Positions 10,252-58,842 of a stretch of DNA of 64,000 nucleotides are shown piece after piece. The notes beneath the pieces were generated by a model. The model was not told where the DNA came from and made no database searches. It saw nothing but the letters and a program-made list of their open reading frames with translations. Source of the DNA: a virus (taxonomy: Duplodnaviria; Heunggongvirae; Uroviricota; Caudoviricetes); IMG/VR virus record IMGVR_UViG_3300043568_002650, positions 64,512-128,511 of that record. The stretch is one strand, 5' to 3'. Position numbers and translations under genes: made by a program. Position 1 is the first letter of the stretch, and the number at the start of each line of letters is the position of its first letter.

Positions 10252-10465
10252 ATTCTATAATTAGTGCGGATTCAAGTCCTTCAAAGAGACCAACATTTAC
10301 AAAGAGTCTAGGATGAGAGAACTCATCAACTGATTGAAATTCGACAGTTTGTCCCTCTTTAATTGAGTCAGTTACCTTAATAATAGGAATAACTTTGAAT
10401 CTACCATACGAAGTCAGGTATTCAACCATCAATTCATTATCCTTATTTACGATCCTTCCTATCAT
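10235..10465 (-). CDS. hypothetical protein
   Basis: 76-aa ORF. Confidence 0.3.
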   Translation of the reverse strand: MIGRIVNKDNELMVEYLTSYGRFKVIPIIKVTDSIKEGQTVEFQSVDEFSHPRLFVNVGLFEGLESALIIEYDNNN

Positions 10466-10754: not shown

Positions 10755-10756
10755 AG

Positions 10757-10963
10757 TTAAGAGTTATTTGACATACCGATTACTGCAATTACCGCAGTCA
10801 CAACAATCGTGATAATAGCGAGTGTAATATTTGCTTCCCATGTCACAATGGCTAAGATTGCTGGAAAAAGAAGGTTAACATCACACTTGTCATGATTATA
10901 GACATTGTCAAAGAGACTGAGCAACATTCCGATTAGACTTAAGATCGCGATTGTAATTACCAT
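10757..10963 (-). CDS. small membrane protein
   Basis: 68 aa, two hydrophobic helices. Confidence 0.3.
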   Translation of the reverse strand: MVITIAILSLIGMLLSLFDNVYNHDKCDVNLLFPAILAIVTWEANITLAIITIVVTAVIAVIGMSNNS

Positions 10964-11006
10964 AGTATTTTAGTTTTAATTATTATACTTTAATTCTTAA
11001 TTAGTT

Positions 11007-12023: not shown

Positions 12024-14807
12024 ATGTCATTTATTAACTGGGGATCAGAGAGTCCAGAACAAAAGGAAATCCGACGCAGGATGGAAGAACAGATGATGTT
12101 TGAACAAATGTCATACAGTGCAGCAGTTGCTGCAGCTGCAGCTGCCGGAAGCGGTTCACTGCCTCGAACAAAACAGGGTCAAACTTCATCGTATACCTAT
12201 GAATCTGAAACTGGCCAATTCTATATTGGGATAATGGATTTTGAAAAAGGGTCACTTCCTGCAGTATTTAATACTGGTCTTAATACTAGCGAAGATTGGT
12301 ATTATGATGATAATAACTATGCTGGAACGTATGTTGTTCAAGATAGTGGTTATCTAATGACCTTTAGTAATAATAGTTCAGCAGATAGAGTATTCTTCTT
12401 CTTTAGTGCAGGAGGTGCACTTATCGAAAAATTAGAGCTCACAACAAACGACACTGACGTATTTGGTGCAAATGGTAATTTTATTGTAGTATGTGATTGG
12501 GATGCATACAAAATATGGTGGTTCGATGGATTAGAAGTAAAGACTTCAGACTTATCAGAAAACACGAATAGTTGGGACTATATAGGTGCAAATGTATCAG
12601 GATTTTTTATAACTTCGTATACTACTGAAGGAGCTACTGATTTCTACAACGTCTTCTTTATTGATGGATCTGGATTAAATCAAATACTTGAAAGAGATGT
12701 AACTAGTCCGACTAATTCATATTCACTAGAGGTATATGAAAACGCAAATATCTTTAGACTATTTAATTATAATGATACCCCTGGTGAATATACCCATATT
12801 TATTATTATGATACTGCTGGAGTTGAACTAGCCGATCTTGATGTGTCCGCTGGAAATTATGTTAGCAAATTTATAGATGTTTTCGGTGCAGGTAAACACG
12901 TCGATACTTTCTACAATGCTACTGAGTACTGTATCTGTTATTACGATGAGGCAGTCGGAGACTTATTAACAACTACTCATGATAGAGTAGACTATCCTAA
13001 TTTTATAGTTACAGGTCAATATAGAAATAATGGTAGTCAATTCAATACCTTGACTGAGAATGGATTAATTACTTTCTCAAGCGACGGTCTTGGGTCGATT
13101 AAAGATTTACAAAATGTGACCCATTGTGATTTTATTCGCTTACATGACGGGCTGGCTGACTTAGATCAAATAGTTCCATTCGCTGATAATGAACCAAAGG
13201 CAATCAATTGGAATATTATTAAAGTCGCCGACTCAATATTCGTGCCAAATTGCCCAGACACTGATGCAGTTTCACCTCAACTAGCATACTTAACTTTTAC
13301 TAGCATAGGTACGAACTTTAATACTCTATTAATTTCATTTGATGATTACGATTATTTTAATACTGACATATTAGGTAATCGATATCTAACTGATGCATGG
13401 CTAGACACTGGGCTGGAACCTGGAACCTATTTTATAACAAATAAAACAGGTGCTGATTATTTAGAGTACCAATATGACATTCGAGATTCAAATTATCTTG
13501 ATGATGAAGGAGATGTAGTAGCATGGAGAAACTCAAGTGATACTACTTTTCAATCATATTATTTAACAACAGAAGATCCTATACCATTTGAGGCAAGTAT
13601 ATTACCTCCATTTGGGAGAATCCAGACAACTTCAACATATCGTCAAGAGGATAAGCTGTATCCTGGAAATCTCTTGATCCAGAGCGGAGAAGGTAGTCGA
13701 TTGTATCTATTTAATGATATTGGTGAAGATAATATAGTATATGGCGGAGATGACATGTATGATGTCGGAAACAAATTAAATACTAATCTTATAGTTGAGA
13801 TAGCATATACGCATACTCAAATGGTGGACACTCCTGAGGATGATGATATAGAAGCTTTACCGAGTATGTTTGAAATGGACGGAGAAGTAGTAGACGGTAT
13901 TACACAATTTGGAGCAGGATCGGAATACTTTACTAACCTATATCCTGGACTATTTACAATGGTTGCTAAGGGCGTAGATATCACTGAATTTTTTATAGAT
14001 GGCAGCACTGGACTTGACAGTAATGGTTATAATACACTTTATTCATATGAAGTAACAGTAGGCGGTCATGATTATACTGCATTCCTAAAGACTACTACTG
14101 GTGGAGGTAGTGACATGGACGGCGAGTCTGATCCAACTATTAATCAAATCATAATTGTAAATGCACAAGATGTAGCACTAATTCAAGAGATCGATGAAAC
14201 CGTTGATACTAATAATGATTATCATAAGATACTTGGACTAGATACTGCTGGTGTAACTGAAGTACACTACTTATTAATGGCAACATATAATAAGTCAGTT
14301 CAGCACGGATTTACTGAAACAGATTTTACTAATGTGGTTAACCAGTATTTAGATATCGTTGATGGTTTATCAATATCGGCTACCTTAACTGCACTAAATG
14401 AAGATTATTCTCTTATCACTGACCAAATTGAAGACACTGAATCATATACTTTAACTTTAGTTAAAGCAGACGGAACCGTACTCGAAAAGGATTCAGTATT
14501 CTATAATGAAGGATTGGATTTAGGACCGACTATGTGTGCCTGTGCATACAATAACGCAGATGGTTTTGCATGTGTCGACGTATACGATATTGACTTAGAG
14601 TTAATTTCAACTTATGTATCTAATGAAACTAATGTAAATACCGTTAGAATAATTGATAATCGATTATATATCATAACTAACTATTTTGATGAAAATGAGG
14701 ATGAACATACTGTTATGGCAATAATGCGAGGAACTTCATTTATCAAGAAAGAATACATACACAATAATGACTGGCGAACATCCAACGATTATGCAGCTTG
14801 GTACTAA
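12024..14807 (+). CDS. large virion structural / tail-fibre-like protein with the conserved N-terminal MSFINWGSES module
   Basis: 927-aa Asn/Asp/Tyr/Thr-rich ORF. N-terminal 45 aa are paralogous to 3527 and 15898. Late-type promoter. Confidence 0.6.
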   Translation: MSFINWGSESPEQKEIRRRMEEQMMFEQMSYSAAVAAAAAAGSGSLPRTKQGQTSSYTYESETGQFYIGIMDFEKGSLPAVFNTGLNTSEDWYYDDNNYAGTYVVQDSGYLMTFSNNSSADRVFFFFSAGGALIEKLELTTNDTDVFGANGNFIVVCDWDAYKIWWFDGLEVKTSDLSENTNSWDYIGANVSGFFITSYTTEGATDFYNVFFIDGSGLNQILERDVTSPTNSYSLEVYENANIFRLFNYNDTPGEYTHIYYYDTAGVELADLDVSAGNYVSKFIDVFGAGKHVDTFYNATEYCICYYDEAVGDLLTTTHDRVDYPNFIVTGQYRNNGSQFNTLTENGLITFSSDGLGSIKDLQNVTHCDFIRLHDGLADLDQIVPFADNEPKAINWNIIKVADSIFVPNCPDTDAVSPQLAYLTFTSIGTNFNTLLISFDDYDYFNTDILGNRYLTDAWLDTGLEPGTYFITNKTGADYLEYQYDIRDSNYLDDEGDVVAWRNSSDTTFQSYYLTTEDPIPFEASILPPFGRIQTTSTYRQEDKLYPGNLLIQSGEGSRLYLFNDIGEDNIVYGGDDMYDVGNKLNTNLIVEIAYTHTQMVDTPEDDDIEALPSMFEMDGEVVDGITQFGAGSEYFTNLYPGLFTMVAKGVDITEFFIDGSTGLDSNGYNTLYSYEVTVGGHDYTAFLKTTTGGGSDMDGESDPTINQIIIVNAQDVALIQEIDETVDTNNDYHKILGLDTAGVTEVHYLLMATYNKSVQHGFTETDFTNVVNQYLDIVDGLSISATLTALNEDYSLITDQIEDTESYTLTLVKADGTVLEKDSVFYNEGLDLGPTMCACAYNNADGFACVDVYDIDLELISTYVSNETNVNTVRIIDNRLYIITNYFDENEDEHTVMAIMRGTSFIKKEYIHNNDWRTSNDYAAWY

Positions 14808-15897: not shown

Positions 15898-16098
15898 ATG
15901 TCATTTATTAATTGGGGAGAAGAATCACAAGAACAATTAGCTGCTCGTAAAAGAATGGAAGAGATTATGATGTTTGAACAAGCTGCGTTTAATGCAGCAA
16001 CTGCAGCGGCTGCAGCCGCTGGATCAGGTGGATCAGGTGGAATTAAATCTAATAAATACGTCGTTAATGGATATGTTGAGGATGGATATTTTGAATAA
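15898..16098 (+). CDS. stand-alone copy of the conserved N-terminal module (MSFINWGEESQEQ...) with a Gly-Ser linker
   Basis: 66-aa ORF consisting almost entirely of the shared module. Followed 23 nt later by a fibre-like gene, so possibly a split or coupled gene pair. Confidence 0.45.
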   Translation: MSFINWGEESQEQLAARKRMEEIMMFEQAAFNAATAAAAAAGSGGSGGIKSNKYVVNGYVEDGYFE

Positions 16099-43786: not shown

Positions 43787-44527
43787 TTGAAGCATAATGC
43801 ACGCACTTTTAATCAATGGATAAACGAGAAAGTAGAATACAATCGTGATCTTTGTCCTAAATTTTGGGAAGAGGGTAAGATGGACACAGCAATACGAGCA
43901 AAACTTCTTGCAATAGCTGACGATTTCTGGTCTTCACTAAAATTAGAAGTCCCAATTATGGATATTCAATTGACTGGTTCAATAGCTAATTTTAATTGGA
44001 ATAAGGATTCAGATTTAGATGTACATATTATTATTGATTTTGCACAAATTGATGGAAACCTAGAACTAGTTAGAAAAGCCTTAGATGGTCAGAGGTTTAT
44101 GTGGAATCTACGCCATCCAGTAGTTCTTAGAGGACATGATGTTGAATGTTATGTTCAACACAAAGACGAGCAACACGTTGCGTCAGGTCTCTTTTCGATA
44201 CTTAGAGATAAGTGGATAATTGTTCCTAATTGGAGTGAACCTAATATTGATCAGAAGGATGTTGATGAAAAGATGAGAGTCATTAAGACTGAAATCAAGA
44301 TGGTGAAGGTAAAGGCTAGATCAGCTGAGGGTGATGAAGCTCAAAATTTACATGATTACTTAGATCGTATCAAAAAGAAGATCATGAATGATCGTAAAGA
44401 GGGTCTCGCTAAAGACGGCGAATTTGCAGTTGAAAATCTAGTCTTTAAAGAGTTACGCCGAGATGGAACAATTGAAGAAATCATTGACTTGCTATCAGAA
44501 ATATATTCAAAGATATATTCAGAATAA
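43787..44527 (+). CDS. pol-beta-superfamily nucleotidyltransferase with N-terminal TFNQWINE motif (CTS-like)
   Basis: GSIANFNWNKDSDLDVHI matches the hG[GS]x9-13DhD NTase signature. MKHNARTFNQWINEKVE N-terminus. Confidence 0.55.
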   Translation: MKHNARTFNQWINEKVEYNRDLCPKFWEEGKMDTAIRAKLLAIADDFWSSLKLEVPIMDIQLTGSIANFNWNKDSDLDVHIIIDFAQIDGNLELVRKALDGQRFMWNLRHPVVLRGHDVECYVQHKDEQHVASGLFSILRDKWIIVPNWSEPNIDQKDVDEKMRVIKTEIKMVKVKARSAEGDEAQNLHDYLDRIKKKIMNDRKEGLAKDGEFAVENLVFKELRRDGTIEEIIDLLSEIYSKIYSE

Positions 44528-44547
44528 ATAATAAAAAATAAAGCATT

Positions 44548-45306
44548 ATGCATAAATATTTTAATTTTACGAAAATTTACGAAGCTGAAAAGATGGGAGC
44601 TCCTCTCGATCCAGAAGAGATGGGAATGCCTGGAAGCTTACCTGAAGCTATCCCTACTGATAAATTGGAAGATTTTGAACTACTAGCGAAAGAAAATATC
44701 CTAGAGATTACACTAACTATGAAGGATATGGATGGGCTAGCAAATGGCCAGTCAGTATCTAAAGAGGATGCTAAGTGGAAAGATAAAATAAATGAAACTA
44801 AATCTAAAGATATTAAGCTAGTTATTCTAAATACTAAAAACGATACATCTAAAAACGATGCAGAAGCACTAGTATTTAATCTAGATGATTCAATTACTGG
44901 TGATATAGTAGAAGGAATTAAGTTAGGCAATATTACACAAGTATTAAAAGGAACCGGTGGAGATGGAATTGAAATTCCTGATATTACAGTTAGATTTATC
45001 AAGTCAGTTGAACTAGATACTTCAACTAAAGAAACAGTTGTTCCAGCTTCTCCTGAACAAATTGAGAGTGGTGTAGTTACTCCAAATGCAGTTGCTGGTG
45101 AAATGCCAAATGAATCTAGAGGAATTATGAGTTTTAGTCAATTTGTTAATGAGGGTAAAAAACAAATGGCTAAAGGTAAGGTAGCTAAAAAAGATGCTAC
45201 ACTAAAAAAGAAGCCTAAAAAAGATAAAGGCTTTCCAGATATGAGCGGAGACGGTATCGTTACAAAAAAAGATATCCTAATTGCTAAAGGAGTAATTAAA
45301 AAATAA
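44548..45306 (+). CDS. acidic protein with a basic C-terminal tail and an internal MSFSQFVNEG motif
   Basis: 252 aa. Internal in-frame ATG at 45127 is preceded by GAGGAA and starts MSFSQFVNEGKKQMAKGK..., so possibly a nested 60-aa product. Confidence 0.5.
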   Translation: MHKYFNFTKIYEAEKMGAPLDPEEMGMPGSLPEAIPTDKLEDFELLAKENILEITLTMKDMDGLANGQSVSKEDAKWKDKINETKSKDIKLVILNTKNDTSKNDAEALVFNLDDSITGDIVEGIKLGNITQVLKGTGGDGIEIPDITVRFIKSVELDTSTKETVVPASPEQIESGVVTPNAVAGEMPNESRGIMSFSQFVNEGKKQMAKGKVAKKDATLKKKPKKDKGFPDMSGDGIVTKKDILIAKGVIKK

Positions 45307-45313
45307 ATTAGAT

Positions 45314-46099
45314 ATGAGAATTAATGAATGTTCATGTGGATGCGAAGGAGCATCTAATAACTGTATGAAAAACCGTGAATCTGATGTGAATTATATGTTT
45401 TTTGGAAACCTTGAAACTATGAAGAGAATGATTGATGAACTTGTACAAATGGATCATACTCAAATTGATGAAATCTTAAAAGGTGGTCATGAATGGGCTG
45501 TTGATCATATTGCATCATCGGTTGATGATGTACAAGAAGTTTATAACTTTCTAATGAATCATGCAGCTGTTCCCATGAATAGAGAGATGGACCGTTTTGC
45601 AGAAGATGACATGATGGTTAAGACCTTTGAAAGTTATGTAAACGAAGTTTCAGGTAAAAAATGGAGAGAAATAGAAACTGATTTACGTGGAAGAAAAATG
45701 GGTGCATTTGCAGATAGAGTATCAGCTCACAGTAAGCAGTATGGAACTAATCAAGTTACTGAAGTCAAATTGGTAGGTATGCCGATTAGTGGATATGAAA
45801 GAGAAGAAAAGCATCTATCAGTTACTAATCTTGAACTTAGACAAAAATCTGGTTCAAACTTTAAAATTGTAGGACAAGATTCTGATTTTGGAACAGTTGT
45901 AATTCACGGATTTACAACTAGCGATGGTAGTGTTCAAATGTTCGAAAGCGAAAGAATGCCACTGCTTGCAGTAGATCGAAAAAATGCACTAGATTTAATT
46001 AAATTTCTAATTGACGAAGGAGTATCTTATGAAAAAGAACTTGACTGGAGAAGATTTACGAATGGATATGTCTCCTTTAAAGAAGCATATAATATGTAA
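45314..46099 (+). CDS. hypothetical protein with an N-terminal Cys cluster and an internal TFESYVNEVSG motif
   Basis: 261 aa. CSCGCEGASNNC at the N-terminus. Internal CTS-like motif at about residue 105. Confidence 0.45.
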   Translation: MRINECSCGCEGASNNCMKNRESDVNYMFFGNLETMKRMIDELVQMDHTQIDEILKGGHEWAVDHIASSVDDVQEVYNFLMNHAAVPMNREMDRFAEDDMMVKTFESYVNEVSGKKWREIETDLRGRKMGAFADRVSAHSKQYGTNQVTEVKLVGMPISGYEREEKHLSVTNLELRQKSGSNFKIVGQDSDFGTVVIHGFTTSDGSVQMFESERMPLLAVDRKNALDLIKFLIDEGVSYEKELDWRRFTNGYVSFKEAYNM

Positions 46100-46101
46100 A
46101 T

Positions 46102-46131
46102 AAAAAAGCCGAGATAAACTCGGCTTTTTTT
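46102..46131 (+). terminator. bidirectional rho-independent terminator
   Basis: AAAAAA-AGCCGAG-ATAAA-CTCGGCT-TTTTTTT between convergent genes 45314..46099 and 46130..46393. Confidence 0.75.
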
Positions 46132-46393
46132 ATATTAGATCAAATTTATTTCCTAGTCGATGTTCTAACTCTTCAAGAGTGTACTTTTTAGCGGCTAATT
46201 CTAAGAGGGTAATCTTTTCCCCTCTAACATATGACCCTTCAAGTCCAGTATCAGATTCTTCTGCATCAATCTCACCAATCTCTTTACGAATCGTATCTAT
46301 TTCAGAGTCTGATGCATAGTCTGTAATATATTCCATGACATCATCAAATTCAATTTCAATGTCAACATCTGTGTTTTTATACATTGTGCTCAT
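46130..46393 (-). CDS. hypothetical acidic small protein
   Basis: 87-aa ORF. Confidence 0.4.
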   Translation of the reverse strand: MSTMYKNTDVDIEIEFDDVMEYITDYASDSEIDTIRKEIGEIDAEESDTGLEGSYVRGEKITLLELAAKKYTLEELEHRLGNKFDLI

Positions 46394-46787
46394 CTAATTC
46401 GCTTTTAAAGAGTGTTGTTAATTTATCTAACTTAGATGAAGTTCTACCAGAAAGCTGGCCAAACTTTATCTTATATGCATGGAACTCTCTTCCAGGAAGT
46501 TTCATTCGCATACGATCAAAGACTTCTTTGAATTCTAACATATTTGATTTTACCTGTTGCCAAAAGGTCCTTTCATTCATTGGGGAACTAAATTTCCAGA
46601 CAGCATCGAAATATATTCCGAGCTCAATACTGGTCCCATTATCAAGGTCGTCGATTGATACTTTTACTGCTTGACGTTCAGTGCGTCGATAATTTAAAAG
46701 TCTTTTAAAACAAAGTTGTCTGTTTTCAGTCAGTTCAATTGAATCTTCATAATAAGAATCAATTATTTTTTCCATTTCTTCAGTCAT
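46377..46787 (-). CDS. hypothetical protein
   Basis: 136-aa ORF. Confidence 0.4.
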   Translation of the reverse strand: MTEEMEKIIDSYYEDSIELTENRQLCFKRLLNYRRTERQAVKVSIDDLDNGTSIELGIYFDAVWKFSSPMNERTFWQQVKSNMLEFKEVFDRMRMKLPGREFHAYKIKFGQLSGRTSSKLDKLTTLFKSELDEHNV

Positions 46788-46797
46788 ATTCTAGATT

Positions 46798-47007
46798 TTA
46801 GTGATTACGTTTCCAATAAGTTTCCCCATCCACAAGAATCTCAATGACCAATGGATCACCTTTTAGTTGTGCACAGTATTTTGCAACAGATTTAATTTTA
46901 TCATATGTTAGTTTCTTGCCGTTACTCAGTATTGCAGTAACATCAGAACCTCCAGGAGAAAGGCTTAAATCATTTCGACGATATTCGTCCTTTACTTTAA
47001 TTGACAT
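46798..47007 (-). CDS. hypothetical small protein
   Basis: 69-aa ORF. Confidence 0.35.
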   Translation of the reverse strand: MSIKVKDEYRRNDLSLSPGGSDVTAILSNGKKLTYDKIKSVAKYCAQLKGDPLVIEILVDGETYWKRNH

Positions 47008-47056
47008 AGTATTGTATTTTTTTAAAAGTTATCAACTAAACTAAAGAATAGGTCAA

Positions 47057-47073
47057 GATAAATAACTAAAATA
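47057..47073 (+). promoter_or_regulatory. late-promoter-like GATAAATAACTAAAATA
   Basis: 11 nt before ATG 47084. Identical to the motifs at 3500 and 11997. Confidence 0.55.
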
Positions 47074-47083
47074 ATTATACACA

Positions 47084-47824
47084 ATGCCAGGTAGAGTTTT
47101 AAATTTTTTAGAATTTTCTGATAAATATTCTAATGGAAGTACTGAACCAGCTAGCGTAGACGATATTAAAAACGCTTCCGCTAATTTCGAAGAAGGCTTT
47201 GACCAAGAAACATACGATCAACCACAAATAGGACCAAATAGACCAGTTGCTGGCAACTATGAAGCTACTCCAGCTACACCTGGAGAAGAAGGATCTCCTG
47301 CATTTTCTGCCAACAATACAAAAGATATGAATGCTCCCCAAGAAGCTGAAGAATCTCCAGAGGAAGAAGAAGGAGAGGCTGACACAGAAGAGACAAAGGA
47401 AGATGATGAGGAAGAAGCAGAAGAGGGAAATCCTGAAGCTGGCGCAAACCCTAAAAAGAAAGTAGAAGAAGGTATAACATTAGTAAAAGGATTCACTCAA
47501 TTCGTGAATGAAGGTAAATTTAATTTATTTAAACGTAAATCAAAGGATCCTGAAGCTGCTGAAAATGAAAGAAAAAGAGTTGAATCATTTTGGAATGATC
47601 CCGATTATAATATCCCAGAAGAAACGTATGAAGAATGTACTGACTGTAATGGAAAAGGTTGTGTTGAATGTAATTACGAAGGCCATGTTCCATTAAAGGA
47701 TGATAATACTTATGGATATGCACCAATAGGTGACAAATATGCAAAAGATGATGACTCTTGTGAGACATGTGGAGAAGTTTCTATTTCAAATGAATATGGA
47801 TATTCTTGCGGATGCAATATGTAA
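47084..47824 (+). CDS. acidic disordered N-terminal region + internal GFTQFVNEG motif + C-terminal Cys-rich zinc-finger domain
   Basis: 246 aa. EESPEEEEGEADTEETKEDDEEEAEEG, then KGFTQFVNEGKFN, then CTDCNGKGCVECNYEGH...CETCGE...CGCNM. Confidence 0.5.
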   Translation: MPGRVLNFLEFSDKYSNGSTEPASVDDIKNASANFEEGFDQETYDQPQIGPNRPVAGNYEATPATPGEEGSPAFSANNTKDMNAPQEAEESPEEEEGEADTEETKEDDEEEAEEGNPEAGANPKKKVEEGITLVKGFTQFVNEGKFNLFKRKSKDPEAAENERKRVESFWNDPDYNIPEETYEECTDCNGKGCVECNYEGHVPLKDDNTYGYAPIGDKYAKDDDSCETCGEVSISNEYGYSCGCNM

Positions 47825-48449: not shown

Positions 48450-48914
48450 ATGATAAGACTAGTTGAAAATTTTAAAGAGTTCCTAGATCTTGCAAGTATT
48501 AATCAAGGACCAAATGGATGGACTATGTATGGGTCAAACCCTAGAGCTTTATCACACGCTGAAAAAGTATCATTTCCTGATCTTGGAATAAAATCAATTA
48601 GGACAAAGGTTGATACTGGTGCAGATGGTACTTCAATTCATGCAAATAATATAAAAGTAAAAGCAGGAGTTCTCTCTTTTTGGGTAACGTCACCAGATAA
48701 AATTTTAGAATTTAAGAATTTTAAAAAGATAAAAGTAAAAAACTCATCAGGCTCAGAACAAACCCGATATCAAATCACGACCACAATTAAATTAGATGAC
48801 TCTGAATTTAAAATTAAAGTTTCATTAACTGATAGAGAAAACATGAAATATCCATGTATCTTAGGTAAAAACTTTATTAAGTCTGGAAAATTTACAGTTG
48901 ACTTAAATCAATAA
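48450..48914 (+). CDS. retropepsin-like aspartic protease fold protein
   Basis: TKVDTGADGTSIHA contains the D-T-G-A aspartyl protease signature. 154 aa is the size of retropepsin-like bacterial domains. Confidence 0.45.
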   Translation: MIRLVENFKEFLDLASINQGPNGWTMYGSNPRALSHAEKVSFPDLGIKSIRTKVDTGADGTSIHANNIKVKAGVLSFWVTSPDKILEFKNFKKIKVKNSSGSEQTRYQITTTIKLDDSEFKIKVSLTDRENMKYPCILGKNFIKSGKFTVDLNQ

Positions 48915-49230: not shown

Positions 49231-49674
49231 ATGCGTATTAAGAGACTTTATGAGGCAGATGATGTTCAACAGCTACCAATGAATGGCCAGATGCCACTTC
49301 CTCAAGAGATGCCACAAATGGCTCCACCCACACCAGTTCAATCTCCAGCTGAGATGATGCCGGATTTTGATTTTCAAAATGAACCAGAACAGGAACAACT
49401 TGCGTTACCTCAACCTGATGTAATGACCCTAACTGTGCAAGAACTACTTGATCGTTGTGATGCAATTAATCCTCTTATTTGCATGGGACTAAGACAATTT
49501 ATTGAGTCAAATAATGCAGAGTTACTTAACCAAACTACTGGCGAAGCTCCTGAAGAGACTGAAGATATTACAATAGATGATACTGACGTTAATTTCTCAA
49601 AACAAATGGAACCGCAAGCTCCTGAATTTTCACTAGATCAACCAGCTGAACAATTAGACTTTCCACAAGCATAA
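49231..49674 (+). CDS. Pro/Gln/Glu-rich hypothetical protein (N-terminus MRIKRLYEAD)
   Basis: 147 aa. Late-like motif AAATAAATAACACTATAAAATAAAC upstream. Confidence 0.45.
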   Translation: MRIKRLYEADDVQQLPMNGQMPLPQEMPQMAPPTPVQSPAEMMPDFDFQNEPEQEQLALPQPDVMTLTVQELLDRCDAINPLICMGLRQFIESNNAELLNQTTGEAPEETEDITIDDTDVNFSKQMEPQAPEFSLDQPAEQLDFPQA

Positions 49675-49675
49675 G

Positions 49676-49951
49676 ATGAGACTAAAGAGACTAGTTGAAG
49701 GCTTTGGTGCTATTATGATGGAGCCAGATCCTGCTGAACGAATCATGCAGCCCGATACTAAGCGTGCAAATGCAATGATGTTCTATTCGGGATCATCTGG
49801 GACCACTCCAACTCATTGGAATAATTCTCCGTTTCTGGCGGGAAGAAGTGCGAGTAGCGCATTTGGATCTAATCCTAGACTGGAGAAAAAAGTTAAGGTC
49901 TTATCGTATCAAGAGTTTGTCGAGACATCTAATAAGTTTACAAATAAATAA
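49676..49951 (+). CDS. hypothetical protein (N-terminus MRLKRLVEGF, paralogous start to 49231)
   Basis: 91-aa ORF. Confidence 0.4.
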   Translation: MRLKRLVEGFGAIMMEPDPAERIMQPDTKRANAMMFYSGSSGTTPTHWNNSPFLAGRSASSAFGSNPRLEKKVKVLSYQEFVETSNKFTNK

Positions 49952-52275: not shown

Positions 52276-53994
52276 TTAAAGTTGCCCTTCTGCGCCAGTT
52301 TCTCCGCCTTCTTTTACTTCTCCACCGCCTTCTGCTGGTGCTTCTCCTCCTGGAGCTGGTGCGGCTCCTCCACCTGGTGCTCCTCCAGCTGGCATTGCTC
52401 CTCCAGCAGGTGGAGCGGCTTCGGCTTCTTCAGTATCTGCTTGTTGATCAAACCATGATTGATTAGACTTAATATCAGACTCATTCATTTTAAGTTCTTC
52501 TCTAATTAAGTACTCAGTAGCGAAGTATGGAGTACCATCATCTTTCATTACTCCTTTCTTAGCTTGGAATGCAGCTATTCTCTTAGCTTCGATCTCATTC
52601 TTCTTCATCTCTTCAAATACGTTATCGTTATTGTATTTAAGTCCAATCGCATTATTAAATTTATAATCGTCTGCAATATCAGGAAAATCTAGACACATTT
52701 GTAGATACCATGGTTTTACCATCATTTCTGAAAAGGCTGATCTTAATCTATTAACAAATTTCTGATACCGTACCTCTTCACGAGTAATACCTTCAGCATT
52801 AAGAGTAAATGCACCCATTCCAGATTGACCTTCCCATCTTGAATAAGGAATCTTTGAATCCATTTTTAATTTCTTATAGAAATAGTTTAATAATTCTGAA
52901 CCAGATAAGTTTGGACCAGGGGTCTGCAAGGTCTCAATTTTTACTGATTGATTTTGATCATTGACTGGTAGAATATAGTTTTTATAGAATAGGATATTTG
53001 GTTTACCATCAACTTGAAGTTCTCCAGAATCACCATTAAAGTTAATATCCTCCTTAAACATGTTTAGGAATTCACGAACGTCCTCTTGGCCTTTTTGAAA
53101 ACTCTTACTCCCGATTGGAACAGTAGTTGTTAAACGAATCGGCGCATTCATTACGTGCCATATAACTTTACTGTGTTCAATAATTCTCAATAGGTTAAAT
53201 GATCTAATTAGACGTTCAACGAAACTTACTCTCTTTGTTCTAAAGTGATTAGCGTATGAAATATAGATGATTTGTGAGTCATTAAGAACTCGAGTCGAAC
53301 CTGTTTGCTGATCATATTGTAACCACTGCATAAAGATCTTGCCTTTAGCATCCTTCTGTAATTGTGGCGCAATACTGGCGGGATCAAGTTCCTTAAATCC
53401 AATTATCTCTTTAGGCTTTTCCAAGTTATCATAGATGATCTCAAAAGAGAGATGGCCTTCAACTAAGAATTGAAACGCATACTGCCAAGCTGAAATACCT
53501 TCAGCAAATCCCCAAGCAGTATACATTCTTTCAAAGTTATCATTATATTTTCTAAGAACCTTCTCTTGAAAATTTAAACGTTCTTCTTTTGTATCTCCAT
53601 GGTAAAGCATTTTACCAGTAAGATCCTTAGGATAGATAAAGCGTTGTTCTTCATCATACACAATCATGTCATCCACGATAGTCTCAAGAATAAACTCGAT
53701 TTCACCATTTGCTGCAACATCTCTTAGTCGCTCTCTTTTTACTACATAATCTAATTGAAAGAATGCAATTGCCTTTGTTCTTAGCTGAGAAGTAGTATCA
53801 GATATTGCCATTGAGAACTTAAGAAGGTCGTCATTTGCATTTAATCTAGAAGTACGAGACTGTAATTGACCTTCAATGAAACCAATTGCTTGTGAATTTT
53901 TAAGTAAAAGATCTTCATGTCTAGTACCAAACTTACTTAAGTTCGATAGAGCACTACTTACTTTTCTTCCTGATGTATCTAAGAATCCACTCAT
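52276..53994 (-). CDS. g20: portal vertex protein (gp20-like)
   Basis: 572 aa. Central region pattern (...WHVMNAPIRL...YILPVNDQ...KIPYSRW) parallels T4 gp20. Acidic Gly/Ala/Pro-rich C-terminus. Confidence 0.6.
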   Translation of the reverse strand: MSGFLDTSGRKVSSALSNLSKFGTRHEDLLLKNSQAIGFIEGQLQSRTSRLNANDDLLKFSMAISDTTSQLRTKAIAFFQLDYVVKRERLRDVAANGEIEFILETIVDDMIVYDEEQRFIYPKDLTGKMLYHGDTKEERLNFQEKVLRKYNDNFERMYTAWGFAEGISAWQYAFQFLVEGHLSFEIIYDNLEKPKEIIGFKELDPASIAPQLQKDAKGKIFMQWLQYDQQTGSTRVLNDSQIIYISYANHFRTKRVSFVERLIRSFNLLRIIEHSKVIWHVMNAPIRLTTTVPIGSKSFQKGQEDVREFLNMFKEDINFNGDSGELQVDGKPNILFYKNYILPVNDQNQSVKIETLQTPGPNLSGSELLNYFYKKLKMDSKIPYSRWEGQSGMGAFTLNAEGITREEVRYQKFVNRLRSAFSEMMVKPWYLQMCLDFPDIADDYKFNNAIGLKYNNDNVFEEMKKNEIEAKRIAAFQAKKGVMKDDGTPYFATEYLIREELKMNESDIKSNQSWFDQQADTEEAEAAPPAGGAMPAGGAPGGGAAPAPGGEAPAEGGGEVKEGGETGAEGQL

Positions 53995-54731
53995 ATATTA
54001 TTATTATTATTTTTTTTCCATAAATACCCACCAGCATGGTCTAGAGTTCCAGCAACACAGCCTTGAATACTAGACTTTGGTATTCCAGTAAGTCGAACGG
54101 CTTCACTAATAGATGTAAATGTATTAATATACACTGTGTCTTTCGATAACTGAACGACACTTATTTTATTTTTAATATTATTTGTTTTTCTAGAAGAGTA
54201 ATTTGAATTTTTATGGATTTTCATATTTTCATATTTCCATATAAATCCGCCAGCTTCATTTCTAGATCCACGACAACAACTAGAAATATGATAAATATTT
54301 AAAGAACGTTGAGCAAATGCTGCAGATTTCCACCAACCTACTAATTCTCCAGATTTTGAATATTGTAAAACTGGTTTTTCTCTAGATGGATATTCTTTAA
54401 GTTTTAGAATATATGCTTCCCTAGATTCAGAATATGCAATTGAAGATATTTTAATTAAATTATGATTAATGTTTCGTAAATTACACATTCGATAAAATGC
54501 ATGAAGCATTGAAATGCGTGAATTAAAATCTATTGAGTTTTCATATATTCTCCATAACAACCAATGTGCAATGAAGTGTTCTCGTGCAGTTAAATAGACA
54601 ATATTTTCAGGATCATCATTTCCTCCAAGTGATCTAGGTATAATATGATGTTTTTCATAATATTGATCATGAGAAGTCGGTCGATTTTTTCGAGTAACTA
54701 TTAATGAATTATAATGTCTTTGATAATCCAT
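53991..54731 (-). CDS. HNH homing endonuclease with two C-terminal AGG[FY]xWK DNA-binding repeats
   Basis: EKHHIIPRSLGGNDDPENIVYLTAREHFIAHW is a canonical HNH motif. AGGFIWKYEN and AGGYLWKKNN repeats. Confidence 0.7.
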   Translation of the reverse strand: MDYQRHYNSLIVTRKNRPTSHDQYYEKHHIIPRSLGGNDDPENIVYLTAREHFIAHWLLWRIYENSIDFNSRISMLHAFYRMCNLRNINHNLIKISSIAYSESREAYILKLKEYPSREKPVLQYSKSGELVGWWKSAAFAQRSLNIYHISSCCRGSRNEAGGFIWKYENMKIHKNSNYSSRKTNNIKNKISVVQLSKDTVYINTFTSISEAVRLTGIPKSSIQGCVAGTLDHAGGYLWKKNNNNNI

Positions 54732-55361: not shown

Positions 55362-55862
55362 TTACACCTTATTGAACAGAAAGTTTTCTGTTATTATGCC
55401 AAATCGCATATTATTATTTTTTGCATATACTTTGGCTGCCTTAAATTTTGCATCATTAATAATATATGCCTTAGCGTGACGAGCATAATTAAGAGTAGCC
55501 TTCTCAGTAAGTCGATTTGGTGGTTCGGGCGGACTAAGATACTTTTGAGGTTTTACTTCAATTAGCCATTTAGTGATCTCACCTTCAGGTGATTTAGTGG
55601 CCATATAACAGTCGACCCAATAAGTAGATTCCTTTTTAAGGATAGGGTTCCAGTATTTTATTGGCATGGGTTCTGAAGCGTATTCAACAACTGCATCTGT
55701 GTTATCGCAATAGGTTAAAAATTTAAGTTCCCAACTTGATCGATAAATTATCTTAGTTATGTCGCCAGAATATTTTTCAGGATACATTGGAGTAAAGTAT
55801 CCCTGTTTGACTCTACCGTGTTGCGGCTTTAGAAAATCATGTATGTTTCTTTCTGCTTTCAT
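55362..55862 (-). CDS. hypothetical protein
   Basis: 166 aa. AATAAATAATTAAT late-like motif upstream on the minus strand. Confidence 0.4.
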   Translation of the reverse strand: MKAERNIHDFLKPQHGRVKQGYFTPMYPEKYSGDITKIIYRSSWELKFLTYCDNTDAVVEYASEPMPIKYWNPILKKESTYWVDCYMATKSPEGEITKWLIEVKPQKYLSPPEPPNRLTEKATLNYARHAKAYIINDAKFKAAKVYAKNNNMRFGIITENFLFNKV

Positions 55863-56279: not shown

Positions 56280-57413
56280 TTACACATATAGTAAATCTAG
56301 TGGAGATTCGGAAAAGTATTGTAGAACAAACTCATTAAACTGATCAAAAGTAAGAGACTTATCGTGTTTTAACATAAACGAATATAGATCATTCACATCT
56401 TTAATTAGTCGAACACTTCTATAATCTTCACTATATTTTTTTCGAAGATCTGCCATTACTTTATTCCATAGGAATACTTGATAACCTTTTTTGATTAGTT
56501 CAATAGATTGAGTCTTACCAGCAAGGTCACTATCGAATAGGATTAGGGTGTTTGATTTACTTAATAGGTTCTCCAATAGAAGTTTACTCTTAGAGATACC
56601 AGTAGTGGCGATTGAGTTATTCAGGAACATTGCATCAATTTGACCCTCAGTTACTAGGATAGGCTTTGTAAAATCAACATTCAATACATTAAAGTAATTA
56701 TTAATTGAATCAATATCAGATATTATATCGTCTTCTACGTTTCGGACAAGACCATTCTTTTTTAATTCAGAATAGTTTTTAATTAGGTATTTTGGCCCAG
56801 TGATATCTTCACCGATTCGACGTATTGCAAAACCAAGTATCTTACCAGTTCGATAATCTATATTAAAAAGATATACTTTATCCTCTCTTGAATCAAAATA
56901 ACTACACCTTTGAAATGCAGGGAGAGTATCAAGTGCGCGATTTTTTATGAATAGTCCAAGTTCAGTATCTGGATCAATCTCACTACATGGAGTTAATGAA
57001 AATCGGTGAGCTACTTCTTCTATTTTTAAGAGGTGATCACTTGCGTTCTTATTAATTAAGAGCTCGATTAATGAGCCTCTCTTCTTTTTAGAAGTTTGAG
57101 GAACCCACTCTTCTTTTGCATTAACCTCAGGTATTCCTAGTGAATATTTAAGTGCAAATTTAGAGATAAACTTAGGAATATCAGATTTTACACCACATCC
57201 ATCATTATAGCATTTGTAGAATCCGCGATCAGGATATATGTTTCCTCTCTTTTTTCTAGAGTCTGATTTGGAATCTCCGCAATATGGGCAGGCGAAATTA
57301 ATCTTATCACCAGATTCATATACTTCCTGTTTAAATCGATCATCTGGAAATCTCTTCTTTAGGACATCCTTTATGAAAGCGTGTATATTGTATCCAGTTA
57401 ACAAATTAATCAT
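56280..57413 (-). CDS. g61: DNA primase (T4 gp61-like; zinc ribbon + TOPRIM)
   Basis: ACPYCGDSKSDSRKKRGNIYP...YKCYNDGCG matches gp61 CPVCGDSKTDQNKARGWYY...CYNC. LVTEGQIDAMF is the TOPRIM acidic motif. Confidence 0.8.
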   Translation of the reverse strand: MINLLTGYNIHAFIKDVLKKRFPDDRFKQEVYESGDKINFACPYCGDSKSDSRKKRGNIYPDRGFYKCYNDGCGVKSDIPKFISKFALKYSLGIPEVNAKEEWVPQTSKKKRGSLIELLINKNASDHLLKIEEVAHRFSLTPCSEIDPDTELGLFIKNRALDTLPAFQRCSYFDSREDKVYLFNIDYRTGKILGFAIRRIGEDITGPKYLIKNYSELKKNGLVRNVEDDIISDIDSINNYFNVLNVDFTKPILVTEGQIDAMFLNNSIATTGISKSKLLLENLLSKSNTLILFDSDLAGKTQSIELIKKGYQVFLWNKVMADLRKKYSEDYRSVRLIKDVNDLYSFMLKHDKSLTFDQFNEFVLQYFSESPLDLLYV

Positions 57414-58842
57414 TTTCTTCTTCCTCTAATACGGGAACAAGATTAGATTTTTCCTTCTTCTTGATCATCCTTTTTAAATACTTATCGAGTTCTGGCTTAG
57501 GAACAATTGTGGTATTTAGACCATATCGAGTAATAACTCCCAAATATTCTTGGAAGTCTTCTTCTGGAATATCGGCATCTGCATTTCCTATGACTTTCCA
57601 GAATTTTTCTGGGACTTCAACATATTCTAGTGTCTCCTGATCAACTATGTATAACGGAAATATCTCAGCATCAGTAAGTACCTTCTTGCTTTTTACTGTT
57701 ACTAACTCTACTGTTCTCTTTAAGTTTGAATCAAGAGAACTGATCTTCATTGCAGTCAATAATCGATTAATAGGTTCAATAATTAGTGAAAAGAATTGAG
57801 AGTCAATATCCATAAGTAGAGCGATCTCATCAGGATAGGTTCCAGGAGAGTATGCAAATACATCATGACCTCCTTCATTAGATGCAGGATTACAGTAATA
57901 AAATTTTATTTTATCACCTTCTCTAATCTTTGGATATTTTTCAACTAGTCCAGTAGTAATTAAAGTATGATTATAAATTGCAGCTGCTCTAGGAAAGATT
58001 GATATTCCTTTTCTGAGTTCAAGTTTAGCTTCACTAGCAACATACTTATTATAGACTCTAATTCTAAAGTTAAAGGCTAGATCATCTGGATGAAGACTAA
58101 GTGCTTCATTCTTTAGATCTAACAGTCGAGGAATAATATCTTTTTCTAAGTCAAGTCTTTTACCGCGATCCATAACAAAGGAGGTAAGCTCAGTAAGTTT
58201 ATTTCGAGCCCAGATAGGGTATGAACCCTTAACTGGTTCTAGACCTTTTATTATTAAGTATCTCTTATCTTGTGGTTCTAGCTCATAATTTGGGTTTGGC
58301 TCATATGCTACTCTAATAGCATAGTTTTTCTTTTTTAGCCAAATACCAGTCTCAGAAAGATTTTCAAGTTTAAACTTAAGTCGGTTCTTAGTATTAAAAA
58401 CTCTTCCATATTTCTCAAAGCACATATCAAAATAACTAGATAGACGATATCGATCAATACTAATACAGATATTTAAAGCTTCGTCTTTTGAAAAATCAGC
58501 GCCAATTATTGAATCAAGGGCAGAGTCAAACTGTACATAAATTGAGTCAGTATCAGTATAGATTGCAGCTTCTGCTTCAATCTTATTAATAGTGTATTGA
58601 TCAATTCCAAGCAATTTGTGTAGCTCAGTATCAAGATGCCACTTTTCTAAAAAATAATGGTTTACTGCTTTAATCGAAAACTTGATTAGATCTTGTCCTT
58701 GTAGAGTGATGGACTGTGCAATATCTGGGTTGTAAAAATAGAACCACTTATTTCCAAATGCACCATAAATTGAGTTAATTAGGATCTTTATCGCATTCTG
58801 CTTCAGATCAAGTTTTTTGATATTTTTTGCTTTATCTTCCAT
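57406..58842 (-). CDS. g43: family-B DNA polymerase, C-terminal fragment only (gp43-like; motifs B and C and thumb)
   Basis: KILINSIYGAFGN (motif B, KxxxNSxYG) at residues 19-31. ITLQGQ. IYTDTDSIYV (motif C). The ORF starts 18 aa before motif B, and upstream is an intergenic region followed by a + strand gene. Confidence 0.85.
   Translation of the reverse strand: MEDKAKNIKKLDLKQNAIKILINSIYGAFGNKWFYFYNPDIAQSITLQGQDLIKFSIKAVNHYFLEKWHLDTELHKLLGIDQYTINKIEAEAAIYTDTDSIYVQFDSALDSIIGADFSKDEALNICISIDRYRLSSYFDMCFEKYGRVFNTKNRLKFKLENLSETGIWLKKKNYAIRVAYEPNPNYELEPQDKRYLIIKGLEPVKGSYPIWARNKLTELTSFVMDRGKRLDLEKDIIPRLLDLKNEALSLHPDDLAFNFRIRVYNKYVASEAKLELRKGISIFPRAAAIYNHTLITTGLVEKYPKIREGDKIKFYYCNPASNEGGHDVFAYSPGTYPDEIALLMDIDSQFFSLIIEPINRLLTAMKISSLDSNLKRTVELVTVKSKKVLTDAEIFPLYIVDQETLEYVEVPEKFWKVIGNADADIPEEDFQEYLGVITRYGLNTTIVPKPELDKYLKRMIKKKEKSNLVPVLEEEEND

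What the first reader, a model, noticed from the sequence alone, without database searches (positions are those of the whole stretch)
44548..47824. Three consecutive late genes carry the CTS-like motif internally, suggesting pro-region cleavage or nested starts
In 44548..45306 the motif MSFSQFVNEG sits at residue about 194. It begins with an in-frame ATG at 45127 preceded by GAGGAA. It separates a 190-aa acidic region from a 60-aa highly basic tail.
In 45314..46099 TFESYVNEVSG lies at about residue 105.
In 47084..47824 GFTQFVNEG lies at about residue 142, between a poly-acidic disordered region and a Cys-rich zinc-finger domain.
Each has the same architecture: acidic N-terminal part, then the motif, then a basic or metal-binding C-terminal domain. 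This suggests a pro-protein matured by the prohead protease after VNE, with the acidic part perhaps neutralising or chaperoning a DNA-binding or toxic domain until packaging. The alternative is an internal translation start that gives a separately targeted small protein.
Basis: partly seen in the sequence, partly recalled or inferred. Interest (0 to 1): 0.55.

Follow-up and report, generated by a model that had tools for sequence, protein, structure and literature searches.

The report
Internal T4-type capsid-targeting/cleavage tags
Three late proteins of an uncultured T4-like jumbo phage carry, in the middle of the chain, the short tag that phage T4 puts at the start of proteins to load them into the capsid and be cut there, so each is probably split into two parts inside the young capsid; this has not been shown by experiment.

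Summary
The motif [FYW]xx[FYW][VI]NE occurs 10 times in the window's 106 proteins against 0.115 expected. Seven copies are N-terminal. The three internal ones are exactly the reported sites. A matrix trained only on the N-terminal copies ranks the three internal sites next-best in the window. Trained on all ten copies, it picks the T4 IPII and IPIII capsid-targeting sequences (MKTYQEFIAE) as the top hits in 112 kb of T4.

The internal motif is kept in 44/44, 36/36 full-length and 110/120 homologues, with synonymous codon changes. It lies in low-confidence linkers of the structure models. It marks the junction where C-terminal modules are swapped. The same phage encodes a gp21-type (Peptidase_S77) protease-scaffold gene about 17 kb beyond the window.

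Best reading, at about 0.55: an internal head-core targeting and prohead-protease cleavage element that separates a conserved acidic N-module from a variable C-module.

An internal translation start is excluded for two genes and unsupported for the third. The "acidic N, basic C" idea holds only for 44548..45306. Cleavage itself is inferred, not shown. This is a new variant of a known kind.

The parts
44548..45306 (+). Protein A (252 aa). It has an invariant N-terminus MHKYFNFTKIYEAE, an alpha/beta domain (residues 43-152), a disordered stretch, the internal motif, and a 50-aa basic tail.
   Evidence: 44 homologues down to 36% identity. No Pfam or PHROG family.
44524..44531 (+). T4-late-promoter-like ATAAATAA upstream of protein A. 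Gene B follows A after 7 nt, so it is probably co-transcribed.
   Evidence: 30 copies in the window against 11.2 expected, nearly all just upstream of starts.
45124..45153 (+). Internal motif of A, I-M-S-F-S-Q-F-V-N-E (residues 193-202). The predicted cut is after E202.
   Evidence: F196, N201 and E202 are invariant in 35 aligned homologues. The strict motif is present in 44/44. It forms a short helix in a low-confidence region. Codons vary synonymously.
45154..45303 (+). Swappable basic tail of A (pI 10.3) with an EF-hand-like loop D231-MSGDGIVTKK-D242 (nt 45238..45273).
   Evidence: Tail type is uncoupled from N-part identity. A homologue is named an EF-hand domain protein in BFVD.
45314..46099 (+). 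Protein B (261 aa). It has an N-terminal MRINE-CSCGC..C cluster (nt 45329..45364), a helical domain (residues 27-83), a linker carrying the motif, and an alpha/beta C-domain (residues 112-261).
45617..45646 (+). Internal motif of B, V-K-T-F-E-S-Y-V-N-E (residues 102-111). The predicted cut is after E111.
   Evidence: Present in all 36 homologues that have a C-extension of this type, and only 6 of them have a nearby Met. It lies in the linker 86-111 with pLDDT below 50. Some homologues carry the same motif at their N-terminus instead (P0165 MKLIKTFESFVNE).
47058..47065 (+). T4-late-promoter-like ATAAATAA upstream of protein C.
47084..47824 (+). Protein C (246 aa). It has an invariant N-terminus MPGRVLNFLEFSDKYS (a degenerate copy of the motif, nt 47084..47131), a poly-acidic region, the internal motif, a hypervariable region, and a Cys-rich end ...C..CGE..ISNEYGYSCGCNM (nt 47636..47821).
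47483..47512 (+). Internal motif of C, V-K-G-F-T-Q-F-V-N-E (residues 134-143). The predicted cut is after E143.
   Evidence: Strict motif in 110/120 homologues, and only one has a nearby Met. Three homologues end 5 residues after the motif (P0285-P0287).

Best explanation
The motif is this phage clade's version of the T4 capsid-targeting sequence, fused to a cleavage site for the gp21-family prohead protease. Its form is [LIV]-K-[GST]-F-x-x-[FY]-[VI]-N-E. In most carriers it is N-terminal, as in the T4 internal proteins. In these three late proteins it lies inside the chain, in a flexible linker between a conserved acidic N-terminal module and a variable C-terminal module.

Proposed course of events:
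1. The full-length protein is made late and joins the scaffolding core of the prohead through the tag, possibly helped by a second N-terminal tag.
2. When the S77 protease becomes active it cuts after the Glu (E202, E111, E143).
3. The two modules separate inside the capsid. By analogy with T4, the C-terminal modules stay with the DNA and may be ejected. These are a 50-aa basic EF-hand-like peptide, a 150-aa alpha/beta domain and an acidic Cys-rich peptide. The acidic N-modules behave like core or propeptide material.

Shown here: the motif identity, its conservation, its position in linkers, the module swapping at the motif, the late-promoter context, and the presence of the protease gene in the same phage.

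Inferred: targeting, cleavage, and the fate of the fragments.
For: 1. Same motif class as the N-terminal tags. A PSSM trained on the 7 N-terminal copies ranks the 3 internal sites next.
2. Objective link to T4. The window-trained PSSM (all ten copies) picks the IPII and IPIII CTS as the top two of 65,540 aa of six-frame T4 ORFs. The T4 CTS is MKTYQEFIAE and is cut once by gp21 (PMC8442874; PMC9958956). The T4 gp23 maturation site F59-GSFLTE65|A66 has the same skeleton (sequence; 65-residue propeptide in PMC5694885).
3. gp21-family proteases cut C-terminal to Glu in an X-x-E motif (PMC5694885). N and E are invariant in 190 homologue sites, while P1' varies.
4. Selection acts on the peptide. Codons vary synonymously among paralogues and orthologues.
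5. The motif sits in low-confidence linkers as a short helix between folded parts.
6. The motif is a module junction.
   - Tails of A are exchanged independently of the N-part: P0013 has an N-part 81% identical but a different tail, and P0043 has an N-part 31% identical but a tail 88% identical.
   - L005 carries an unrelated 250-aa domain after the motif.
   - B and C have several alternative C-modules, and some homologues end just after the motif.
7. Late context. ATAAATA occurs upstream of 15/22 tag-bearing genes against 10/80 others, p = 7e-7.
8. The window's own phage has a T4-type portal. It also has a gp21/S77-type protease-scaffold gene (tblastn: T4 gp21 E about 1e-7, relative L021's Pfam-confirmed S77 protein 3e-45) plus a Gp23-type capsid gene about 17-21 kb to the right (Pfam on a relative).
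9. Long N-terminal propeptides of 100-275 aa removed by such proteases are documented in giant phages (PMC5694885).
Against: - There is no direct evidence of cleavage or packaging. No virion proteome exists for this uncultured clade.
- The capsid protein of the lineage shows only plain phi-x-E sites (ILE24, LAE38, IFE54) in its N-terminal region and not the full motif. The most obvious in-silico control was therefore inconclusive.
- A PSSM built from the lineage's scaffold repeats does not retrieve the tag. The resemblance to the scaffold is at skeleton level only.
- In T4 the CTS has been shown to work only at the N-terminus.
- The 10-residue conservation exceeds what a protease site needs, so it could reflect a docking function without cleavage.
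Confidence: 0.55

Rival explanations
1. Docking motif without cleavage. The helix binds the scaffolding core, the portal or another head component. It recruits the intact two-module proteins, which stay uncut.
For: About ten residues are conserved, more than the phi-x-E a protease needs. The motif is predicted as a short amphipathic helix. Homologues exist that end right after the motif, where cleavage would release almost nothing.
Against: The invariant Asn-Glu at the end matches the cleavage position of the T4 CTS and of gp23. The P1' position is free. The lineage has the matching protease. In T4 every CTS carrier is cut (PMC9958956).
Confidence: 0.2
2. Nested gene. Translation also starts at ATG 45127 inside 44548..45306. 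It yields a separate 59-aa basic protein with an ordinary N-terminal tag, as T4 genes 17 and 21 have in-frame internal starts.
For: An in-frame ATG sits exactly at the start of the motif, with GAGGAA 4-9 nt upstream. The Met is kept in 38/44 homologues. Internal in-frame starts are annotated in T4.
Against: - The Met is replaced by Leu or Phe in 6-7 of the 44 homologues, while F, N and E are invariant.
- Only 7/91 genes of the window have a Shine-Dalgarno-like site.
- The start-context score of -0.78 is below 79% of true starts and unremarkable among internal ATGs.
- There is no late-promoter motif inside the ORF.
- This cannot apply to the other two genes, where a nearby Met occurs in 6/36 and 1/110 homologues.
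Confidence: 0.08
3. The motif serves a function unrelated to the capsid. It could be a site for another protease, such as the retropepsin-like PF05618 protein encoded at 48450..48914. It could be a chaperone-binding element, or simply a structural helix inherited by domain shuffling.
For: A protease-like gene lies in the same late operon and itself has a tag-like N-terminus. The functions of all modules are unknown.
Against: The PF05618 gene is reduced to a 32-aa remnant in L001, L003 and L004, yet the motif is intact there. The motif matches the T4 CTS specifically. It is tied to late-promoter genes.
Confidence: 0.12
4. Chance or compositional artefact, or mis-joined ORFs.
For: None beyond the shortness of the motif.
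Against: 10 observed against 0.115 expected. The fused architecture is conserved in 44, 36 and 110 homologues from many metagenomes.
Confidence: 0.01

Closest known systems
Capsid targeting sequence (CTS) of phage T4 internal proteins IPII and IPIII (MKTYQEFIAE, cut by gp21 after the Glu)
   Same: The skeleton is the same: K-T-[YF]-x-x-F-[IV]-x-E followed by the cut position. A matrix built from the window's motifs finds the T4 CTS as the best hit in T4. The carriers are late proteins. The cargo behind the tag is highly variable (PMC3012670).
   Different: Here P2 is Asn and not Ala. In the three proteins the tag lies 100-195 residues inside the chain, behind a conserved module. The tag is far more widely used: 7 strict and about 20 loose N-terminal carriers in 64 kb, against two CTS-conserving proteins in T4 (PMC9958956).
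Long N-terminal propeptides of head and ejection proteins in giant phages phiKZ, 201phi2-1 and SPN3US, removed by a gp21-like protease at (A/S/G)-x-E
   Same: Propeptides of 100-275 residues are cut off C-terminal to a Glu by a T4-type prohead protease. They are proposed to act in targeting (PMC5694885).
   Different: Those sites are minimal three-residue motifs without a CTS-like helix. The proteins are unrelated. Here the upstream module is the conserved part and the downstream module is the swappable one.
T4 prohead core proteins gp67 and gp68, and the gp23 maturation site
   Same: These are small acidic core proteins encoded next to the portal gene and cut internally by gp21. gp67 has ...ARNFLIE-G followed by a poly-acidic tail, like the protein C family. 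The gp23 site FGSFLTE|A has the same skeleton.
   Different: There is no sequence homology (tblastn). Whether A, B and C are core components is unknown.
14-residue repeats of the protease-scaffold fusion proteins of this phage clade
   Same: Each repeat carries [FY]-x-x-[YH]-[LIV]-[AGS]-E, the same skeleton ending in Glu. There are 10 copies in the lineage's own protein, and 326 in 40 related proteins against 4.7 expected.
   Different: The residue preferences differ (Tyr and Ala/Ser against Phe and Asn). A matrix built from the repeats does not retrieve the tag. The repeats are tandem, whereas the tag is single.

Membership tests
T4-type capsid targeting sequence (CTS) | A sequence of about 10 residues that matches the MKTYQEFIAE pattern | tested here: met
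   The window-trained PSSM ranks the T4 IPII and IPIII CTS first in 112 kb of T4. The CTS sequence is taken from PMC8442874.
T4-type capsid targeting sequence (CTS) | Located at the extreme N-terminus of the protein | tested here: not met
   The motif ends at residues 202, 111 and 143 of the three proteins. The feature is met by 7 other ORFs of the window.
T4-type capsid targeting sequence (CTS) | Cut by the prohead protease directly after the terminal Glu | not testable with these tools
   This needs virion mass spectrometry or an in-vitro cleavage assay.
T4-type capsid targeting sequence (CTS) | Sufficient to load a protein into the prohead core | not testable with these tools
   This needs reporter fusions in a cultured relative.
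Substrates of gp21/Peptidase_S77 prohead proteases | The genome encodes a T4-type portal, an S77 protease and a Gp23-type capsid protein | tested here: met
   Portal_T4 at 3e-61 in the window. The protease-scaffold and capsid genes lie in contigs of the same phage and its close relatives, about 17 kb right of the window. Pfam finds S77 and Gp23 on a relative.
Substrates of gp21/Peptidase_S77 prohead proteases | An X-x-Glu site in an exposed, flexible segment | tested here: met
   [VI]-N-E is invariant. The motif lies in or next to segments with pLDDT below 50, between folded parts of the AlphaFold models of A and B. C was not modelled.
Substrates of gp21/Peptidase_S77 prohead proteases | The same full motif at the maturation site of the lineage's major capsid protein | tested here: inconclusive
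   Only plain phi-x-E sites (ILE24, LAE38, IFE54) occur in the first 110 residues.
Nested in-frame genes (internal translation starts, as in T4 genes 17 and 21) | A conserved internal start codon | tested here: not met
   A Met within 4 residues upstream occurs in 38/44 (A), 6/36 (B) and 1/110 (C) homologues.
Nested in-frame genes (internal translation starts, as in T4 genes 17 and 21) | A start-like upstream context or an own promoter | tested here: not met
   Start-context score -0.78, below 79% of true starts. Shine-Dalgarno-like sites are rare in this genome. No ATAAATAA lies inside the ORFs.
T4 prohead core proteins gp67/gp68 | Sequence homology to gp67 or gp68 | tested here: not met
   tblastn of T4 gp67 and gp68 against the window gives nothing below E = 0.2.
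Scaffold 14-residue repeat of the clade's protease-scaffold proteins | Residue-level match to the repeat unit and tandem arrangement | tested here: not met
   The repeat-trained PSSM does not retrieve the tags: 3 hits at 7 or more against 5.2 expected, and none of them is a tag. The tag is a single copy.

The most novel reading that the evidence does not exclude
This clade of uncultured T4-like jumbo phages may use one portable 'load-me-and-cut-here' tag on a large share of its late genes, about one ORF in five in this window. By placing the tag inside a chain it would build two-part proteins. A conserved acidic core-associated module would carry a freely exchangeable cargo module into the capsid and release it there by proteolysis. 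The tag-coding sequence would also serve as the recombination junction for cargo exchange. The tag could then be used to read off the packaged and ejected proteome of uncultured phages from sequence alone.
Probability: 0.35. Interest if true: 0.7.

Novelty: new variant of a known kind. Interest (0 to 1): 0.55.

Why it matters
If correct, the T4 capsid-targeting and gp21 recognition element is ancient. It would be shared with a large, uncultured group of aquatic jumbo phages, where it has expanded greatly.

Practical consequences:
- It gives a sequence-only predictor of which proteins of such phages are packed into the head and possibly injected into the host. These are candidates for anti-defence or take-over functions.
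- It helps with start-codon calls. One example is the TTG start of 43787..44527.
- Internal placement would be a new way of delivering two products from one late gene, with the cargo half swapped between phages.
- It makes a concrete prediction for metaproteomics and for any cultured relative: peptides starting right after ...VNE.

Tried and rejected
- Pfam and PHROGs on A, B and C gave no family.
- tblastn of C against 50,697 GenBank phage records gave no match. DNA similarity to GenBank phages was one weak hit.
- The retropepsin-like PF05618 gene as the cognate protease was rejected, because it has decayed in three relatives that keep the motif.
- The origin of the extra 250-aa domain of L005 was not found.
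- A search for gp21 or gp23 in the window and in 10 kb on either side found nothing.
- A first capsid-protein alignment (T4 plus LR756500) gave no useful loci. A second gave a sister clade only, with portals 36-42% identical. Walking along the contigs finally located the lineage's protease and capsid genes.
- The capsid-protein maturation-site control was inconclusive.
- The idea that the tag equals one unit of the scaffold repeat failed the residue-level test. It survives only as a shared skeleton.
- The charge-neutralisation idea was rejected as a general rule.
Full report
CONTEXT
The window has about 35% G+C and tightly packed table-11 ORFs.
- It encodes a T4-type portal at 52276..53994 on the minus strand (Pfam Portal_T4, 3e-61), a UvsW-like helicase and a split family-B DNA polymerase.
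- The nearest GenBank records are huge uncultured phages and Lak phages, with only 30-38% portal identity.
- Homologues come from metagenomic contigs of up to 275 kb, including 'uncultured Caudovirales phage UFOVP972'.
- Only 7 of 91 genes have a Shine-Dalgarno-like site.
- Two upstream signals stand out. One is TAGTATAAT. The other is (G)ATAAATAA, which resembles the T4 late promoter TATAAATA (my knowledge). ATAAATAA occurs 30 times against 11.2 expected, almost always 15-30 nt upstream of a start codon.

THE OBSERVATION
- Protein A, ORF 44548..45306: I-MSFSQFVNE ends at residue 202.
- Protein B, ORF 45314..46099: VKTFESYVNE ends at residue 111.
- Protein C, ORF 47084..47824: VKGFTQFVNE ends at residue 143.

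The strict pattern [FYW]xx[FYW][VI]NE occurs 10 times in 106 proteins (20,134 aa) against 0.115 expected. None of 2000 shuffles reaches 3. Seven copies lie within the first 15 residues of other ORFs (1014+, 1535-, 19936+, 28101+, 43787+, 50289+, 61316+). The other three are the reported ones.

A matrix trained on the seven N-terminal copies alone scores the internal sites 20.4, 20.1 and 13.7. They are the next-best hits of the whole window, and no other internal site reaches 10. Codons differ synonymously between copies and between orthologues, so selection acts on the peptide.

Two corrections apply. Three minus-strand ORFs separate the second and third gene. The 'acidic N, basic or metal-binding C' architecture holds only in part. 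Net charges of the N-part and C-part are -16/+12 for A, -13/0 for B and -27/-11 for C. In the C family the part after the motif has a median charge of -17.

IS IT CTS-LIKE?
The T4 CTS is MKTYQEFIAE. It is cut once by gp21 and is sufficient to load foreign proteins (PMC8442874; PMC9958956; PMC3012670).

The window-trained matrix was run over all six-frame ORFs of 112 kb of T4. Its two best hits were the CTS of IPII and IPIII (15.1); the next hits lie in non-coding frames. ORF 50289 starts MKRNIKTYHQFINE.

The T4 gp23 maturation site also has the skeleton: F59-G-S-F-L-T-E65|A66 (sequence; 65-residue propeptide per PMC5694885). gp21-family proteases of T4, phiKZ and SPN3US all cut C-terminal to Glu in an X-x-E motif.

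CONSERVATION
Five syntenic IMG/VR loci at 68-91% identity keep all three motifs. In the large protein searches the counts are as follows.
- A: strict motif in 44/44 homologues down to 36% identity. F196, N201 and E202 are invariant.
- B: strict motif in 36 homologues, including all full-length orthologues. The N-domain (MKKLNECSCGCGG...) also exists widely as a protein of about 150 aa with only a degenerate version of the segment. A few homologues carry the motif at their N-terminus instead (P0165 MKLIKTFESFVNE).
- C: strict motif in 110/120 homologues.

P1' is variable.

INTERNAL START?
- A Met within four residues upstream of the motif is present in 38/44 (A), 6/36 (B) and 1/110 (C) homologues.
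- In A it is replaced by Leu or Phe in several homologues while F, N and E stay invariant.
- The GAGGAA upstream of ATG 45127 carries little weight in a genome that hardly uses Shine-Dalgarno sites.
- The upstream-context score of ATG 45127 is -0.78. That is the 81st percentile of internal ATGs and lies below 79% of true starts.
- No ATAAATAA lies inside the ORFs.

The alternative is therefore excluded for B and C and unsupported, though not excluded, for A.

WHERE THE MOTIF SITS
- AlphaFold model of B (pLDDT 70.6): a helical domain at 27-83, a linker at 86-111 with pLDDT below 50 that contains a short helix at 105-110 (the motif), and a confident alpha/beta domain at 112-261.
- AlphaFold model of A (pLDDT 63): an alpha/beta domain at 43-152, disorder at 156-194, a helix at 196-208 (the motif), and a disordered basic tail.

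No known fold was recognised.

MODULE JUNCTION
- In A the tail after the motif comes in two types. One has an EF-hand-like loop, FPDMSGDGxVTKKDIL. The other reads ...LQLNAKDAKTHKRD....
- Tail type is uncoupled from N-part relatedness. P0013 has an N-part 81% identical but the other tail. P0043 has an N-part 31% identical but a tail 88% identical.
- L005 has an unrelated 250-aa domain after the motif.
- B homologues have at least three different C-modules, one again with a DxDGDG loop.
- In C the region after the motif is hypervariable, and three homologues stop five residues after it.

LATE CONTEXT
Tag-bearing genes are linked to the late-promoter-like signal: 15/22 against 10/80, Fisher p = 7e-7. 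The broad set of carriers was hand-picked, which is a caveat. The carriers without a promoter of their own lie downstream of a late gene.

THE PROTEASE
No gp21 or gp23 homologue lies in the window or in 10 kb on either side.

In a sister clade (portals 36-42% identical) the gene order is portal, then an S77 protease fused to a scaffold, then a Gp23-type capsid protein, then genes with N-terminal tags such as MKRVLSYNEFVNESK. L029 has six tagged genes after the capsid gene, four of them in tandem. The scaffold part consists of 9-10 tandem 14-residue repeats, each with Y-x-x-[YH]-[LIV]-[AGS]-E. A distal F-[LM]-x-F-[LV]-x-E follows, for example FLRFLNE. Together these give 326 skeleton matches in 40 proteins against 4.7 expected.

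Walking rightwards from the window reached contigs of the same phage (L099, 100% identical in the query gene) and the contigs of L002 and L004. These carry an S77-type protease-scaffold gene (T4 gp21 tblastn 1e-8 to 3e-7). It lies about 17 kb beyond the window's right end by my estimate from the locus coordinates, and a capsid gene follows it. This lineage's scaffold has 10 repeats with the skeleton, against 0.146 expected.

Two controls did not help.
- The capsid protein's N-terminal region shows only plain phi-x-E sites.
- A matrix built from the scaffold repeats does not retrieve the tags. The resemblance to the scaffold is at skeleton level only.

The retropepsin-like PF05618 gene at 48450..48914 is not the conserved partner. 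It is a 32-aa remnant in three relatives that keep the motif.

MECHANISM AND RIVALS
The best-supported reading is an internal head-core targeting and prohead-protease cleavage element. It splits each protein, inside the prohead, into a conserved acidic N-module and a swappable C-module. I give it about 0.55.

Shown here:
- motif identity and its objective match to the T4 CTS;
- conservation at peptide level;
- location in linkers;
- module exchange at the motif;
- late-promoter context;
- presence of the S77 protease in the same phage.

Inferred: loading into the core, the cut after Glu, and retention or ejection of the C-modules.

Rivals: docking without cleavage (0.2), another unrelated function (0.12), a nested start in A (0.08), and chance (0.01 or less).

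COMPARISON AND NOVELTY
The tag works like the T4 CTS but fails the defining N-terminal position. Long propeptides cut by gp21-like proteases are known in phiKZ-like phages, but without a CTS-like helix and in unrelated proteins.

A full-text search for capsid targeting together with jumbo phages and metagenomes returned one paper, which I did not read and whose title and abstract concern DNA base modification. I am not aware of an earlier description of this motif.

I rate the finding a new variant of a known kind. It is moderately interesting in itself. It is more interesting as part of the wider pattern that about one ORF in five in this window carries the tag.

Noticed in passing
window 1014, 1535(-), 19936, 28101, 43787, 50289, 61316. 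Looser variants at 418, 4885, 9361, 18057(-), 25915, 30652, 42821(-), 48450, 49231, 49676, 55947(-), 60372, 60987.: Seven ORFs start with the strict tag (for example MKRNIKTYHQFINE, MELLSFNQFINE). About 15 more start with looser variants. A second class has the form K-[IL]-[YF]-E-[ADST] (MKYIKLFETY, MRIKRLYEAD, and MHKYFNFTKIYEAE of protein A). About one ORF in five may therefore be tagged.
   Followed up: partly
window, 30 sites, for example 3501, 11998, 19647, 25563, 29236, 44524, 47058, 49200, 58937, 61293: (G)ATAAATAA lies 15-30 nt upstream of many starts (30 against 11.2 expected). It resembles the T4 late promoter TATAAATA. Another gene set has TAGTATAAT just upstream, probably early or middle promoters with very short leaders.
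   Followed up: partly
about 17-21 kb right of the window end. Loci L099, L114 (nt 7848..9836 and 9863..11503), L117, L118, L132.: The same phage lineage has a gp21/S77-type prohead protease (by similarity) fused to a scaffold made of 10 tandem 14-residue repeats ([FY]xxY[LIV][ASG]E). A Gp23-type capsid gene follows. The assemblies of the window's own phage break inside the repeats (L130 and L132).
   Followed up: yes
L019-L098 (sister clade), for example L029 5163..10780, L051 7820..8794, L021 994..2760: The tag is widespread in a much larger clade of uncultured T4-like phages. Genes right after the capsid gene start with MKRVLSYNEFVNESK and similar sequences. L029 has six tagged genes after the capsid gene, four of them in tandem, like a T-even internal-protein locus. 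The protease-scaffold proteins carry an internal FLRFLNE or FLNFLNE.
   Followed up: partly
window 45238..45273. Homologues P0045-P0047, P0082, P0086, P0092, P0095, P0104.: A small basic module with an EF-hand or dockerin-like loop (D-x-S-G-D-G-x-V-T-x-x-D, or DQDGDGDNDF) recurs as the C-terminal tail of unrelated proteins, always after the tag or at the end of a basic protein.
   Followed up: partly
window 45329..45364 and 47636..47821: Protein B begins MRINE-CSCGC...C, and the C family ends with the invariant C..CGE......SCGCNM. Both look like four-Cys knuckles. The shared SCGC element at opposite ends of neighbouring proteins is unexplained.
   Followed up: no
window 48450..48914. L001 9747..9842, L003 and L004 9802..9894.: A retropepsin-like protease (Pfam PF05618, 3e-15) with a tag-like N-terminus lies in the same late operon. 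It is reduced to a 32-aa remnant in three relatives.
   Followed up: yes
window 43787..44527: A nucleotidyltransferase-like late protein (phrog_36119; weak NTP_transf_2) probably starts at TTG 43787 and not at the first ATG (43880). The tag TFNQWINE and a late-promoter motif at 43759 lie upstream of the ATG, and both are conserved in L001. In L002 a diverged, tag-bearing copy of this gene lies on the opposite strand.
   Followed up: partly
window 3527..4333, 12024..14807, 15898..16098. Also L114 11971 and L117 12725.: Several late ORFs share the N-terminus MSFINWGSESQEQKEIRKRIEEQM... ahead of different bodies. This is another shared N-terminal module, and its function is unknown.
   Followed up: no
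window 49676..49951 and 49231..49674: The 91-aa ORF ends ...VLSYQEFVETSNKFTNK. This is close to the T4 CTS (YQEFIAE) but lies near the C-terminus, and it is conserved in L003 and L005. ORF 49231 has an internal GLRQFIESN. Both fall below the strict pattern.
   Followed up: no
window 53991..54731, 55362..55862, 56280..58842: An HNH/NUMOD-type homing endonuclease gene abuts the portal gene. A TnsA-like endonuclease gene lies nearby. The family-B DNA polymerase appears split into two ORFs (56280..57413 and 57406..58842).
   Followed up: no
L005 292..1656: In one relative, protein A continues after the tag into an unrelated 250-aa domain in place of the basic tail. No homologue of that domain was found in the window or in the other loci.
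   Followed up: partly
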